A DNA stretch of 64,000 bases from Mizuhopecten yessoensis. Lineage: Eukaryota. Made by a program: the position numbers. The DNA is taken from the NCBI RefSeq assembly GCF_002113885.1, contig NW_018404943.1:991236-1055235 (forward strand). The letters are read 5' to 3'. Below, piece by piece: positions 24,001-30,000 of this stretch; positions within the stretch are counted from its first letter, which is position 1, and the number at the start of each line of letters is the position of its first letter.

Positions 24001-27000
24001 CTAACACAATATTACATAGACTGACCACACAAACCTAACACAATATGACATAGACTGGCCCCACAAACCTAACACAATATTATATAGACTGACCCCACAA
24101 ACCTAACACAATAGTACTTGGTAGATGTTAAACCCCTCCAAACACAAGATTTCCCCCTCCACTCCCCAGCAGTATCTTATATAGATTGGCCTCAGGACCC
24201 TGATACTATATTATATGGACTGCCTTTCAGACCTTACACAGACTGGCCTCACAGACCACCACTACATCACTCAATACCAGCATCAGAAGCTAAGTCCTCA
24301 ATAAAGGAGATAATGTGTCTATTGTATGGTATAATGACTGGTCTTGTAGCCATTGCTCCTCCACAATAACAGGCCTGTCCCCTAACAATCTGTCTCCATT
24401 TCATGTCAAACTCATTTCCAGGAGAGGATTGTTGATGTCCAATTAATTTGTCTGAGTAACAATGTGTCTAGGAATAAATGAATTGCGATACCTATTCCTG
24501 ATTTATGTCAAATCGTCCAGTGTACTTTCCTTATACTTATCCGCGCTGAGAGATGTGAATTAATTCTTCATACTGTACTAGCAACATCCAATGACATTGA
24601 ATGAAGGTCACTTACCAAAGTGTAGTAGAATGAAAGAAAGAAGTTTTGTATCCCTGTTTGTATTTGTACTGGTGTATATATCAGTATTTGTACCAATTTG
24701 AACCACCGGTGTTCTTATATATATTGTATTGCAAGCAAAAAACAGGTAGGTTGGAGTTTCCACATTCCTCAACTATTACAGAAATGTCCACCATTTGAAA
24801 AATCTAGCACATCAATTATTTATTCCTATTTGAAATGGAATCATTCAATGAAAATAATGTGGATATACGGTACATGCTATGACGTACAATTCTACATTTT
24901 AGTTCTTGTTTGTATTGTTTCATCATATGACCTGACCCTGGACAAAGCTTGTCAAATGATAAAAACATATGTAGCTTCATGGCAATCCAATGTAACTGTT
25001 ATCTTAAAACATTTTTTTGCTTCAAAATCATGAAATTTATGAATGAATTTCCATAGGAAGATATAACAATAAAAAAAGTAAATATTGAAATAAAAAAATA
25101 CCTTTTTGTACACTAAGGCAGAAGTTGTGAGATGGTTAAATTTTTTTTTTGGAAAACAGCTAGGATCATTTATCTCAATGTTTGAAACTGGAAATAAAGT
25201 TTACAATTACTCATGGATAAGTTTGACCTGAGATAAGATGTACTACTATGGTAATATGATGTACTACCTTGGCAATATGATGTATCACCATGGCAATATG
25301 ATGTATCACCATGGCAATATGATGTGTCACCATGGCAATATAATGTATCACCATGGCAATATGATGTGTCACCATGGCAATATGTTGTATCACCATGGCA
25401 ATATGTTGTACTCCCATGGCAGTACAATGTTTTACCATCGGCAATATGATGTATCACAATGGTGATATGATGTATCACCATGGCAATATGATGTGTCACC
25501 ATGGCAATATGATGACAATATGATGTGTCACCATGGCAATATGATGTATCACCATGGCAATATGTTGTACTTCCATGGCAATACAATGTTTTACCATCAG
25601 CAATATGATGTATCACAATGGCGATATGATGTATTACCATGGCAATATGATATATTACCATGGCAATATGATGTATTATCATGGCTTCTATGGTCAGCTG
25701 TTTATAACCATGGTAATTAAATATTGAATCAAAATTTCATGCAACAAATCATCATGAAGAAACAACTACAATCAAGAACCAAAGCATGACTGTTTGTACT
25801 TTTATATGGATTCATTCATCTACGAGCAAATGACTATAGATATAGAAACAGTTACAGGATATATAAGCGGTTATATCTATACCAATGAATATCATCATAA
25901 CATTTATAATATCATTAATAAGAAGCATACTTATGGCATGTATAGGAGATATATACATTTTTTCATATTTCTTGAATACATCAAAGCTAAACCATTCTAT
26001 AGTAGATATAGATAAATATAGATCAAACTGTGTCACTCAGTGATACAAAAAGAAAACTGCAATAAACATCAGCAGTTAAAAAAAATATAAGTTTACATAA
26101 AATATTTAAAAATAAATAAAAAAAAAAAGAAGATGAAGCTAAAAAGGTTATAGCGGAGTATGGCGAAGGGTCAGAGGTCAAGGGCAGGAAGGGGATCAAG
26201 GTCATTGCCGGCAATGTGCAACTGATATACATACAGATGGATATGTTATTTATAAAATCTAAAAATATTGACTTTTCCTTCACAATGTAGATTCTAACGG
26301 AGAAACTGAACCAGGTAATTTTGACTATTAGCTGACCAAGAAATGATGTTGTCTCAACATGTACAGACACTTCAAACAAGTTTTTGATGATTGTAGCAAA
26401 GTTTAACTTCTAGTCATGTGATAAAAAATGGGGAAAACACACAACATGCACAAAATAAATGTAGGAAAAAAGAATAAAATATAACAATGTGCAACAATGC
26501 AATGATGGAAGCCATGCAGTAGAAACACAGGGATCATCTCACAACTACATTTAGGGAAAAGGCAAGAAACTTTTATTAAAATGTGAGTCCTAGTGATAAT
26601 AATTATAAACTTGTGCAATTTGTACAGGAATATAAGGTCAGCAGACACCTCCCGACAGGTATGGACCCAACATGTGCATTCTCACATTGACAAAACTTCA
26701 GGTGCACTTTATAAACAGTGTTTGAGATGACCCCAAGAAATGAAATAATCTACAAGTGCCAGGCAAAACAAGCCTAAAACTCAGATGACAAAGAAGAAAC
26801 TGAATACAACAGACAGAAGACAATCACAGAGAATGCTACCAGTACAGAAAAGATGGCACATGCCTGTAAGGACAAGGCCAGACAACTCAGACCAGTCACA
26901 AACCTGGTCATGCCTGATGCTTCCAACACTCACAGAGAGGCTAGAGGGCATGCCTGGGGCACAGACTAAGGACAGAAATTGGCATGCCTGGACGGAAAGA

Positions 27001-30000
27001 CAGACATGCCCAAGATGGACGGACAGACAGACATGCCTAGGAGTGGTTTCCTTGCCTGCCGTTAGGTTGCCTCTGACCATCCTCATATATTGTAAAGCAG
27101 ACATGTTGTTCCGTTTGGCCAAAGTTTCAAAAATGCACATGTGAGGAGGCTTCAAATTATCATATTTGGGATAAATTGAAGGGGGACGCCAAGGGTACTT
27201 ATTGGGGTAACGGTTATGGTCTCGATCTTTTGGTTTTTGGCGATTCTTCTTTGATGGCATATACTCATAGGGTGTGAAGGAAGATTCGGTGGTAGAAGTG
27301 ACGGAAGGGCGAAGGGGTTTACTTTTGCGGGGTCGGGAATTATTTTTCAAGGGAGTAATCTTTGTGGTAGTTGAGGTGGTGATGGTTGTGCGCAGTGGAT
27401 CCGTTTCTGTGCCATACAAGACCAGGACCCAATCATCTAACTTAGCCGCCCTCACTGCAAACAAAACACATGGACAAAAACACAAGGTATTAGTAGTCAA
27501 GTCACCAACAGGTAGCCCAAGGCAGCCCTACATACAAATCCTGCTGTACCGTATCTTCTGCACTCCCTTACAGTAACACAATAACATTGGGTAAACAATA
27601 GTCAAACATCCATCATTTACCAAGCAAAAATGTATAAAGCTAAAAAATTCACAAATTTCAAAACAGGAGGTTTTTTTATAGGCATAAGGGATAGATGCAT
27701 GTGTATTCCTCGTAAGGGAGGATCCTAACATCTTAAAAAACGTTTCATAATTTTAATTATTTGTACAGATCTTCTAGAAAGGAAAATCAAAGCTGTTGTC
27801 TGGACAAAAGCAGATGTTTTTTACAGTGCTGAAAATACAGTACTTGTAAATATACAAGGCTGGGCTACATTAACAGATTGACATGTTGATGATAACTAGC
27901 TATAATTTAATACTGTAGCTCTGTTACACTGAAATGTTACCCTTGCACATTTTGATAGATTAACCTTTGACCCTGGCACCACTTTGACCTCTACGAACAG
28001 GTTATGTTCTTGGGCAGAACCAGTCCGAGGTCACCCGCGGTGGTAAGGTCAAATCAGAAATCTTTTCACATCCATGCCTGGTTCACTGTTCTTAGAACAC
28101 AAATAACAATTGAAGGACTATGCAATAAGCTTTTAACTGTTTCTTAAAATTTCAGCTTTTCAAACATACCAAATTATTTTTCTGAATTCAATACAGGTAA
28201 ATAATAAAATGTACAGAATTCTCAAACTTAACCATATGTGATAAATTCCAACATCATTTTATTATGAAAAAAAATCTGCAGTAAAATACCAAGTCAAGAT
28301 ACCAATTTAAATCACATTATTAGCTATTAATTTTTCATTCAGTAAGATTATCATTTTAGTCAATCTTATGATATTTTTTTCTCAGGTAAATTAAATCTTT
28401 CTACTTCAAGTATACATACATCATTTTGTATTTCAAAAGAGAAAGAAAACATCAGGCTACGGCTCATTAGTGTTAGTTGTTAATATAAGTTATTTGTTCT
28501 GGTGCTGAAGCGATGTGCAATGCATGCAAGGACACCAAGGAAGGGAGGTAAGCAGGAGTCGGGACTCATTTGAAGGCAAATCAAAATAAAACAACATATT
28601 TCATTAAAACTAAAATCTAGTAATTTCAGAACATAAAAGTCCGATTCAATGTTGTTTTTCCAGATACAAATTCACAAGCTAAGTAACTGAATAAAATAAA
28701 AAGTGAAAATAAAATATATTCAAATTGATCTTTTTATCATTTTTTTTTTCCAACCAAGAATTATCAAATAAAAATCTTCCTCTGTAGAAATAACCCATTT
28801 TAACAGCACTTTTGTTGTTGAAATGTTACATGTGGATGATAATGGAGGATGGTATAAAAATCAATGTTCAAAAAGACATTTACATTCAATGTGGAAAAGT
28901 GAATTTATCTCATAACTACCCTGTTATCAGTAGCACAACACCCACCCATAAGTTGTGTTAGTAACACCAAGAGGTGCTATGATTGATTACAGGTGTCCAT
29001 TGTTTCAAGTGTAATATCACAACTAGGACAACTTCACAGCATCACAACCTTTTAAGTACAATGTGATGTCATATAAAGAACAAGAGGCCCAGAGGACTGA
29101 TATCCGGGGAAGTTTATGCAATCATAGCTGTATATTTTCATTCAGAGTATATAATATTGTAAATATTTCCCTGTATCAGACTCTGTCACTTTGATCCAAG
29201 GATGCTTATTAGCAATAATATATGTACTGGTTGAGAACCATAAACATGTATAATATAGTTGTAGGGTTAGGATCACATCATTTCTAATAATGACCTGAGA
29301 ATAAGTCACTATAGGGGCAGTGCCAGATCCTTGCACTAATCTTGGTAGCATCTTGCATTATTTCAATCATGCCCAGTAATAATAGCCTGTGAATGGTTAT
29401 GTGGTGGGGATCTTAACAATTTTCCAAAGATATGATCCAAGGACTGAAAAAAAGTCTGCACTAGTGGTCTACATATTTCTTAAATATCATGTCTCTAGAC
29501 CTTATGATTCTTCAAATAATAATATTTTGACATATTTGACCTCTATGACTTTAAAGTAAGTGATGGTTTTTGACATGTGGAAATTTTATCACTCCGTCCA
29601 AGGTATCTCGAGGCAAAATATCAGAAACCCGAGCCTCATGGAACTTTTTGGGCCCATTATTGCTTAATGATGTTAACCTTCAATCATGGCCAGTGCTCAA
29701 AGTTGACCTTTGACCTAAACACTATGTATAATAATAAAAAAAGATTCAGTCTAGACTTCATGGTCCTTTAAAAAGCATTACTTGAAGTTTTATCATAGTC
29801 ACCCCTGTGACCTTGAAAGGTCAAGGTCGTTGATATGAGCAAACTCAAGAGAACCCCATGCCAGGTACCTACTGGCTAAATATCAGGATCCTGGACCTTA
29901 TGGAACTTAGGAACAAGATTCTTAATTTGTATATCCGCGACAGCCTGTGTTAACCTTTGACCTGGGTCTTGCTCAAAGTTGACCTTAGACTTAAGCACCA

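What the first reader, a model, noticed from the sequence alone, without database searches (positions are those of the whole stretch)
26781..27454. Exon A may encode a tail-less, possibly GPI-anchored cell-surface convertase
Seen: after the P domain come a Thr/Ser-rich stalk (TTITTSTTT, SVTSTTESS), basic clusters (RPRKSK, KKNRQKPK), sequons NNS/NMS/NLT and a minimal RxxR site (RMVR). The protein ends directly in a hydrophobic run (LLSVVFSFFFVI-stop), with AATAAA about 200 nt downstream. Inference: a C-terminal hydrophobic stretch with no cytosolic residues resembles a GPI-addition signal. That would put the enzyme at the surface without TGN retrieval signals.
Basis: inference. Interest (0 to 1): 0.65.

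Follow-up and report, generated by a model that had tools for sequence, protein, structure and literature searches.

The report
Alternative tail exon of furin-like convertase
This stretch is a second, duplicated copy of the exon that finishes the P domain of a non-human furin-like protease gene; it probably makes an isoform without the usual membrane anchor and cytosolic tail, and a lipid (GPI) anchor at its hydrophobic end is possible but not shown.

Summary
An open frame runs from a good acceptor (27454) to a stop at 26783-26781, and AATAAA lies 204 nt further on. The gene is a furin-like convertase whose exons run from about 61 kb to 17 kb. Its P-domain exon is about 60% identical to mammalian furin, so I take the contig as non-human.

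The gene holds two paralogous exons for the end of the P domain, both entered in phase 1:
- Exon A is the finding.
- Exon B (18087-17953) leads to exon C, which encodes the Cys-rich region, a transmembrane helix and a cytosolic tail.
- A and B align over 33 residues at 42% identity (E 2e-6).

Exon A has no donor as good as the gene's ten real donors. Its frame stays open 179 codons past the position matching exon B's donor (9 of 20000 shuffles), and its GC content is exon-like. It is therefore most likely an alternative terminal exon giving a tail-less isoform.

The last 89 codons, which include the hydrophobic end, are weak as coding sequence:
- Their codon usage is intron-like.
- They contain degenerate repeats.
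- Other frames are open there too (shuffle p=0.077 for this part alone).

The end fits only a rule-of-thumb GPI pattern. Transcripts and orthologues could not be checked.

The parts
32824..33128 (-). P-domain exon (exon i). Its donor CCA|GTAAGT leaves 1 nt of a codon (phase 1).
   Evidence: Pfam P_proprotein E 3.4e-24, covering profile positions 1-73 of 86. Matches furin 1p8j at E 3.6e-29, about 60% identical over 98 residues. Boundaries and phase.
27323..27454 (-). Exon A, proximal 132 nt. It holds the acceptor TTTGCAG|TG (phase 1), the last P-domain strand (..AAKLDDWVLVLYGT) and a Thr-rich linker up to ..NNSRPRK. It is the paralogue of exon B.
   Evidence: BLASTP of exon A against exon B peptides: 14/33 identical, no gaps, E 2e-6. 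Colinear DNA alignment. Codon score 0.32-0.41 bits/codon, like known exons.
27321..27322 (-). GT of a weak candidate donor, AAA|GTAAAC. It is phase 1, so in frame with exon C, and lies at about the position homologous to exon B's donor.
   Evidence: Own-gene donor PWM score 2.3, against 6.9-10.6 for the 10 real donors. Alignment.
27051..27320 (-). Exon A extension. It is rich in Pro, Lys, Ser, Arg, Tyr and Asn, and holds SVTSTTESS, KKNRQKPK, the dibasic site LAKR, NMS, RMVR and NLT.
   Evidence: No in-frame stop in 232 of 20000 shuffles. The other five frames have 3-7 stops. Codon scores 0.15 and -0.07, within the range of known exons. AlphaFold2 gives low-confidence helices at residues 106-114 and 119-131.
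26784..27050 (-). Distal 89 codons of the frame. They are rich in Leu, Ser, Val and Cys (9 Cys) and end in CLLSVVFSFFFVI. Their coding status is doubtful.
   Evidence: Codon score -0.25, against an intron mean of -0.32 (sd 0.16) and a minimum of -0.14 among known exons. Stops in the six frames: 0, 2, 7 / 1, 0, 6. Shuffle p 1543/20000. On the other side, GC is 0.49, reached by only 0.3% of 1281 intron windows.
26989..27042 (.). 27-nt tandem duplication (2 copies, 89% identical), which gives HVCLSVHLG / HVCLSVQ. Nearby, GGCATGCCTGG-like motifs occur 4 times at 34-49 nt spacing (26907-27040).
   Evidence: the repeat finder families D1 and D2.
26781..26783 (-). Stop codon (TGA) ending the exon A frame.
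26572..26577 (-). AATAAA, 204 nt after the stop. GT-rich sequence follows 25-55 nt further on.
17953..18087 (-). Exon B (135 nt, phase 1 in and phase 1 out). It is the second copy of the P-domain end (..ELKQWTLVVMGT), followed by a linker and the first two Cys of the Cys-rich region. Its donor is TAG|GTTAGT.
17116..17681 (-). Exon C. It encodes the Cys-rich region (10 Cys), a transmembrane helix (VIILCTSAILLFGVVFIVL, KD 3.05), and a cytosolic tail with an acidic cluster (EDRESDID) and YHTV, then the stop.
   Evidence: Sub-threshold Pfam hits to GF_recep_IV and VSP.

Best explanation
Exon A is an alternative 3'-terminal exon of a non-human furin-like proprotein convertase gene. It arose by tandem duplication of the exon that completes the P domain (exon B). 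When the P-domain exon is spliced to exon A rather than to exon B, the original donor of the duplicate is weak or dead. The transcript then reads on and is probably polyadenylated after the AATAAA at 26577. The protein has a complete catalytic and P domain, followed by about 208 residues of mostly disordered tail: a Thr/Ser-rich stretch, then a basic, Pro/Tyr-rich stretch. It lacks the Cys-rich region, transmembrane helix and cytosolic sorting tail of exons B and C. What is shown: the two paralogous exons, their phases, the long open frame, the lack of a good donor, and the exon-like GC content. What is inferred: that the exon is terminal and the isoform is tail-less. The hydrophobic last 13-19 residues would be translated if no splice intervenes. 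They look like read-through into T-rich, repeat-derived sequence rather than an evolved signal. Their fate is open: a GPI signal, a weak membrane anchor, ER retention, or removal by cleavage at LAKR or RMVR.
For: Gene identity. Peptidase_S8 scored above its cut-off in 4 of the 227 minus-strand ORFs scanned, and just below it in a fifth. P_proprotein scored 85.2 bits. The P-domain exon matches furin structures at 3.6e-29.

Exon structure. Phases are consistent across exons a-i, B and C. Exons A and B both start in phase 1 after the P-domain exon's phase-1 donor. A and B are homologous over 33 residues (E 2e-6) and their DNA is colinear. The Pfam P-domain match stops at profile position 73 of 86 in the preceding exon, so the next exon must supply the end of the domain.

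Evidence that the exon reads on. No GT inside exon A scores above 5.0, against 6.9-10.6 for the gene's 10 donors. The frame stays open over 179 codons in only 9 of 20000 shuffles. GC is 0.47 across 27454-26784, against 0.362 for introns and 0.494 for exons, and it falls to 0.38-0.40 just past the stop. AATAAA lies 204 nt past the stop.

Precedent. bli-4 isoforms differ by 3' exons, with or without the CRD and TM (PMC10538796, passages read). PC5-A and PC5-B are COOH-terminal variants (PMC2121096, abstract).
Against: No transcript evidence of any kind was available. The candidate donor AAA|GTAAAC at 27323 is in the right phase and at the homologous position for a mutually exclusive 132-nt exon. 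The codon-usage test has little power once stops are ignored: real exons g, B and C score -0.14 to 0.04, and frame contrast is small. Within that test, the distal 89 codons score below every known exon. Exon A peptide had no Pfam family, no PDB relative above chance and no Atlas hit. The AlphaFold2 model has mean pLDDT 42. AATAAA within 300 nt is expected by chance about one time in five at 0.75 per kb. Direct searches with the 24-residue P-strand peptides of exons A and B found nothing. Their assignment to the last P-domain strand therefore rests on position, phase, paralogy and a recalled W-x-L-x-L-Y-G-T motif.
Confidence: 0.5

Rival explanations
1. Mutually exclusive cassette. Only the first 132 nt of exon A (27454-27323) are exonic. 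The weak donor AAA|GTAAAC joins them in frame to exon C. This gives a transmembrane isoform in which a Thr-rich linker replaces exon B's linker and first two cysteines. Everything from SKPLRPS... to the hydrophobic end would be intron.
For: Exon A (short form) is 132 nt and exon B is 135 nt. Both enter and leave in phase 1. They are homologous over 33 residues, and the two donors sit at nearly the same alignment position. The distal frame has intron-like codon usage and repeats.
Against: The donor scores 2.3, against 6.9-10.6 for real donors, and lacks G at both -1 and +5. An intron staying open for 179 codons was seen in only 9 of 20000 shuffles. GC stays exon-like up to the stop. Dropping exon B removes the first two Cys of a C-x8-C-x2-C-x10-C-x3-C module that straddles the B/C junction.
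Confidence: 0.25
2. One reading: exon A is terminal and its hydrophobic end is a functional GPI-attachment signal, so the convertase is lipid-anchored at the cell surface without TGN retrieval motifs.
For: The last 13 residues (CLLSVVFSFFFVI, mean KD 2.83) follow the last charged residue and run to the stop, with no cytosolic residues. One candidate omega site fits the recalled rule (C203-T-G, 20 residues from the end, spacer SILCDC). The sorting motifs lie only in exon C. A GPI-anchored subtilase exists in Toxoplasma (TgSUB1; PMC1291349, passage read).
Against: The signal lies in the part with no coding signature. The last 40 codons are open in 6254 of 20000 shuffles, and T-rich DNA (37% T) yields hydrophobic residues by default. 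The 35 residues upstream are also hydrophobic and Cys-rich, unlike a polar spacer. No predictor was run and no orthologue was seen. None of the 15 listed papers, out of 39 holding the search terms, describes a natural GPI-anchored furin/kexin convertase.
Confidence: 0.1
3. Exon A is a decaying, unused duplicate (pseudo-exon) of exon B, and the gene makes only the B-C transmembrane form.
For: Exon A has no family, structure or Atlas match. Its donor is degenerate. Its distal sequence is repeat-like.
Against: The acceptor is strong and the P-strand residues are kept (W, L-V, G-T shared with exon B). There is no stop for 224 codons (shuffles). GC is exon-like.
Confidence: 0.1
4. Exon A is spliced further downstream from an internal donor before the hydrophobic end (for example TCT|GTGAGT at 26934 or CAG|GTTTGT at 26904, both phase 0) to an unrecognised exon.
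For: These two sites have the best intron-side consensus in the distal part.
Against: They score only 2.7 and 5.0, below the 95th percentile (5.5) of all 3513 GT sites in the introns. No Cys-rich or otherwise protein-like ORF was seen between 26780 and 18160, where 18597-24117 is one 34-bp minisatellite.
Confidence: 0.05

Closest known systems
C. elegans bli-4 (furin/PCSK family) 3'-exon isoforms
   Same: One convertase gene has a shared peptidase and P domain and alternative 3' exons. Some isoforms carry a Cys-rich domain plus a transmembrane segment, and others are short (PMC10538796, passages read).
   Different: Here the alternative exon carries its own duplicated copy of the end of the P domain. 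I did not check whether bli-4 does. The tail sequence is unrelated to anything found.
Mammalian PC5-A / PC5-B
   Same: These are COOH-terminal variants from one gene that are sorted to different compartments (PMC2121096, abstract).
   Different: As I recall, the PC5 isoforms diverge inside the Cys-rich domain, not at the end of the P domain. PC5-A is soluble and has no hydrophobic end.
Drosophila Dfur1 isoforms (Dfurin1, Dfurin1-CRR, Dfurin1-X)
   Same: An invertebrate furin-like gene is diversified at the C-terminus by alternative splicing. I saw only the titles, in reference lists; the paper PMC413406 is not held.
   Different: As I recall, all three Drosophila forms keep a transmembrane segment. 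Details could not be read here.
TgSUB1, GPI-anchored subtilase of Toxoplasma
   Same: It is a subtilisin-family protease reported as GPI-anchored (PMC1291349, passage read).
   Different: It is not a kexin/furin-type convertase with a P domain. It is an apicomplexan microneme protein. The anchor here is unproven.
Yeast Kex2 Ser/Thr-rich region (recalled, no call)
   Same: A Ser/Thr-rich stretch directly follows the P domain.
   Different: In Kex2 it precedes a true transmembrane helix and a cytosolic tail.

Membership tests
Furin/kexin-type proprotein convertase (peptidase S8B) | Subtilase catalytic domain with Asp, His and Ser motifs | tested here: met
   Peptidase_S8 hits in exon ORFs at 61122-61280, 41919-42116, 38728-38952 and 35208-35339 (above cut-off) and 35986-36399 (20.1 bits against a cut-off of 21.8). 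DDGI, HGTRC and GTSAS are seen in those ORFs.
Furin/kexin-type proprotein convertase (peptidase S8B) | P (homo-B) domain after the catalytic domain | tested here: met
   P_proprotein 85.2 bits, E 3.4e-24. Furin structures match at E 3.6e-29.
Furin/kexin-type proprotein convertase (peptidase S8B) | Exon A supplies the last strand of the P domain | tested here: inconclusive
   The Pfam match ends at profile position 73 of 86 in the preceding exon. Phase fits. Exon A is homologous to exon B. The 24-residue peptides alone hit nothing in Pfam or PDB. The joined exons were not searched or folded.
GPI-anchored protein | N-terminal signal peptide | not tested
   The pro-domain and signal-peptide exons were not located. 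The first exon identified starts at 61259, and the 5' end may lie outside the window.
GPI-anchored protein | C-terminal uncharged hydrophobic run reaching the stop | tested here: met
   13 residues follow the last charged residue, with mean Kyte-Doolittle 2.83. The best 19-mer scores 2.26, against 3.05 for exon C's transmembrane helix.
GPI-anchored protein | Small omega and omega+2 residues with a polar spacer of about 5-10 residues (rule recalled) | tested here: inconclusive
   There is one candidate (C203, T, G; spacer SILCDC). The upstream region is itself hydrophobic. No trained predictor was available.
GPI-anchored protein | Conserved hydrophobic end in orthologues; PI-PLC release | not testable with these tools
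The release assay is a bench experiment.
Alternative 3'-terminal exon | No functional donor, a stop, and a poly(A) signal downstream | tested here: inconclusive
   The best internal GT scores 5.0, against 6.9-10.6 for real donors. AATAAA lies 204 nt after the stop. The PWM was built from only 10 donors, and AATAAA is common (0.75 per kb).
Mutually exclusive tandem-duplicated exons | Homologous exons of the same phase and similar length, each with working splice sites | tested here: inconclusive
   Homology, phase and length (132 against 135 nt) are met. The exon A donor is weak (2.3).

The most novel reading that the evidence does not exclude
A metazoan furin-type convertase gene uses a duplicated P-domain-end exon as an alternative terminal exon. 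The resulting isoform has a mucin-like, basic stalk and a functional GPI signal. That would be a lipid-anchored cell-surface convertase with no TGN retrieval motifs. I found no natural example among kexin/furin convertases in the 15 listed of 39 papers.
Probability: 0.08. Interest if true: 0.6.

Novelty: new member of a known kind. Interest (0 to 1): 0.3.

Why it matters
Where a convertase sits (TGN, granules, cell surface or matrix) decides which precursors it cuts. That location is set by what follows the P domain. A gene that switches between a furin-like anchored, recycling form and a tail-less form by choosing one of two duplicated exons is a compact example of this principle in a non-model animal. 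If the hydrophobic end were a working GPI signal, it would add a mode of surface retention not described for this family. If it is only read-through, it is an ordinary alternative C-terminus. It would then also be a caution against reading signals into the ends of long open frames.

Tried and rejected
- **Pfam.** The exon A peptide and the whole ORF hit no family.
- **PDB sequence search.** With the exon A ORF, only chance-level hits appeared (E 0.9-2.1). The 24-residue P-strand peptides of A and B hit nothing, and nothing in Pfam.
- **ESM Atlas.** There was no usable hit for the whole exon A peptide or for residues 17-134.
- **AlphaFold2, single sequence.** Mean pLDDT 42 and pTM 0.24, so it was not used for fold search.
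- **Transposon or dispersed repeat.** blastn of 26400-27600 against the window gave only three 19-nt chance hits. TRF found no array inside 26781-27454.
- **Gene on the opposite strand.** Four plus-strand ORFs over the region gave only sub-threshold Pfam noise (E 0.046-0.14). Rejected.
- **Further exons between A and B.** A scan for Cys-rich or P-end-like ORFs found only minisatellite translations.
- **Codon usage as a decisive test.** Rejected as underpowered once stops are ignored.
- **Literature.** No natural GPI-anchored furin/kexin convertase appeared among the 15 listed of 39 hits. The search for bli-4, blisterase and isoforms found 0 papers. The mollusc and splice-variant search gave nothing relevant in 12 listed of 157.
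- **Not run.** Orthologues therefore stayed unchecked.
- **Joined exons.** The spliced protein was never assembled, searched or folded. All searches were exon by exon.
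Full report
**What is there.** The finding lies on the minus strand.
- A stop-to-stop frame of 248 codons spans 26781..27527. It is the longest in the window.
- The exon proper starts at the acceptor TGTTTTGTTTGCAG|TG at 27454 and runs to a TGA at 26783-26781.
- AATAAA lies at 26577-26572, 204 nt after the stop.

**The gene.** I scanned 227 minus-strand ORFs of at least 40 residues with Pfam.
- Peptidase_S8 scored above its cut-off in four exon ORFs and just below it in a fifth. P_proprotein scored 85.2 bits in the ORF 32741-33178.
- That exon aligns to mouse and human furin structures at E about 4e-29, with roughly 60% identity. 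This is a furin-like convertase of a non-human animal, and I treated the contig as non-human.
- Reading the ORFs with their splice sites gave exons a-i from 61259 to 32824, with mutually consistent phases. Exons b, g and h rest on reading and phase only.
- All searches were done exon by exon. The joined (spliced) protein was not assembled, searched or folded, so no test used the whole isoform.

**The key anatomy: two copies of the same exon.**
- The P-domain exon ends in phase 1 (CCA|GTAAGT), and its Pfam match stops at profile position 73 of 86. The next exon must therefore finish the domain.
- Two exons can do so, and both are entered in phase 1. Exon A (27454 onward) reads ..AAKLDDWVLVLYGT.... 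Exon B (18087-17953) reads ..ELKQWTLVVMGT....
- Their peptides align without gaps over 33 residues (14 identical, E 2e-6), and their DNA is colinear over the same span.
- Exon B leaves in phase 1 (TAG|GTTAGT) for exon C (17681-17116). Exon C encodes ten cysteines, a strong transmembrane helix (KD 3.05), and a cytosolic tail with an acidic cluster and YHTV.
- Exons B and C together give the spacing C-x8-C-x2-C-x10-C-x3-C across their junction. As I recall, that is the spacing at the start of furin's Cys-rich region.
- So the gene makes a canonical anchored furin through B-C. Exon A is a diverged tandem duplicate of exon B.

**Is exon A's long tail exon or intron?**

For exon:
- No GT in exon A scores above 5.0 on a matrix built from the gene's ten donors, which score 6.9-10.6. 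The 95th percentile of all 3513 GT sites in the introns is 5.5.
- The frame stays open for 179 codons beyond the position matching exon B's donor. That happened in 9 of 20000 dinucleotide-preserving shuffles.
- GC is 0.47 over 27454-26784, against 0.362 in introns and 0.494 in exons. The distal 267 nt reach 0.49, matched by 0.3% of 1281 intron windows. GC drops to 0.38-0.40 just after the stop.

For intron, at least distally:
- AAA|GTAAAC at 27323 is in phase 1 and near the homologous donor position. It would give a 132-nt exon, against exon B's 135 nt.
- Codon-usage scores fall along the exon: 0.32, 0.15, -0.07 and -0.25 bits per codon. The last value is near the intron mean (-0.32, sd 0.16) and below all 11 known exons, whose minimum is -0.14.
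- The last 267 nt have 0, 2, 7 and 1, 0, 6 stops in the six frames. They also hold a 27-nt tandem duplication and a motif repeated four times.
- Taken alone, the last 89 codons are open in 1543 of 20000 shuffles, and the last 40 codons in 6254 of 20000.
- The codon test is weak. With stops ignored, real exons show little frame contrast.

**Reading.**
- Most likely (0.5), exon A is an alternative terminal exon. It gives a convertase with a Thr/Ser-rich, then basic Pro/Tyr-rich, largely disordered tail, and without the Cys-rich region, transmembrane helix or sorting tail. AlphaFold2 gave mean pLDDT 42, with helices only at residues 106-114 and 119-131.
- This is the design known from bli-4 (PMC10538796, passages) and from PC5-A and PC5-B (PMC2121096, abstract).
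- The main rival (0.25) is a mutually exclusive 132-nt cassette joined to exon C.

**The GPI idea.**
- The end has 13 uncharged hydrophobic residues up to the stop and one rule-of-thumb omega candidate, so the resemblance is real.
- It sits in the part of the frame with the weakest claim to be evolved coding sequence, and T-rich DNA gives such ends by default.
- The residues upstream are hydrophobic and Cys-rich rather than a polar spacer.
- No predictor, transcript or orthologue could be consulted.
- I put GPI anchoring at about 0.1. Cleavage at LAKR or RMVR could equally remove the end, and the basic clusters could bind heparan sulfate. Both are inferences.

**What stayed unchecked.**
- Orthologues and transcripts were not checked.
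- The signal peptide and pro-domain exons were not located.
- Supplementary files of the papers were closed.
- The Dfur1 paper is not held, so its isoform details are recalled.

Noticed in passing
window 18597-24117: The intron between exon A and exon B holds a 5.5-kb minisatellite of a 34-bp unit, about 163 copies at 84% match. Its translations mimic Cys-rich ORFs.
   Followed up: partly
window 1009-2017, 6983-7972, 9059-9448, 25233-25685, 41593-41883, 44277-45080, 45987-47566, 52453-54421, 56661-57224, 58186-60644: There are many further minisatellite arrays, with periods of 18-53 bp and some with higher-order periods up to 239 bp. They fill the introns and flanks of the convertase gene.
   Followed up: no
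window 17116-17400 (minus): The cytosolic tail in exon C carries an acidic cluster (EDRESDID) and a Y-x-x-hydrophobic motif (YHTV). As I recall, these resemble furin's TGN-retrieval and endocytosis signals.
   Followed up: no
window 27060-27140 (minus), exon A residues ~106-131: AlphaFold2 predicts two short helices over IFETLAKRN and ALQYMRMVRGNLT, at pLDDT 59-67. They contain a dibasic KR site and the RMVR site. They may form an amphipathic or processing element, as I recall for the C-terminal tails of PC1/3.
   Followed up: no
window 15516 and 15579 (minus): The first AATAAA and ATTAAA after exon C's stop (17116) lie about 1.5-1.6 kb downstream. This suggests a long 3' UTR for the anchored isoform.
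   Followed up: no
window 61259-64000 (minus): No pro-domain or signal-peptide exon was recognised upstream of exon a among the 227 ORFs scanned. The 5' end of the gene probably lies beyond the window.
   Followed up: no
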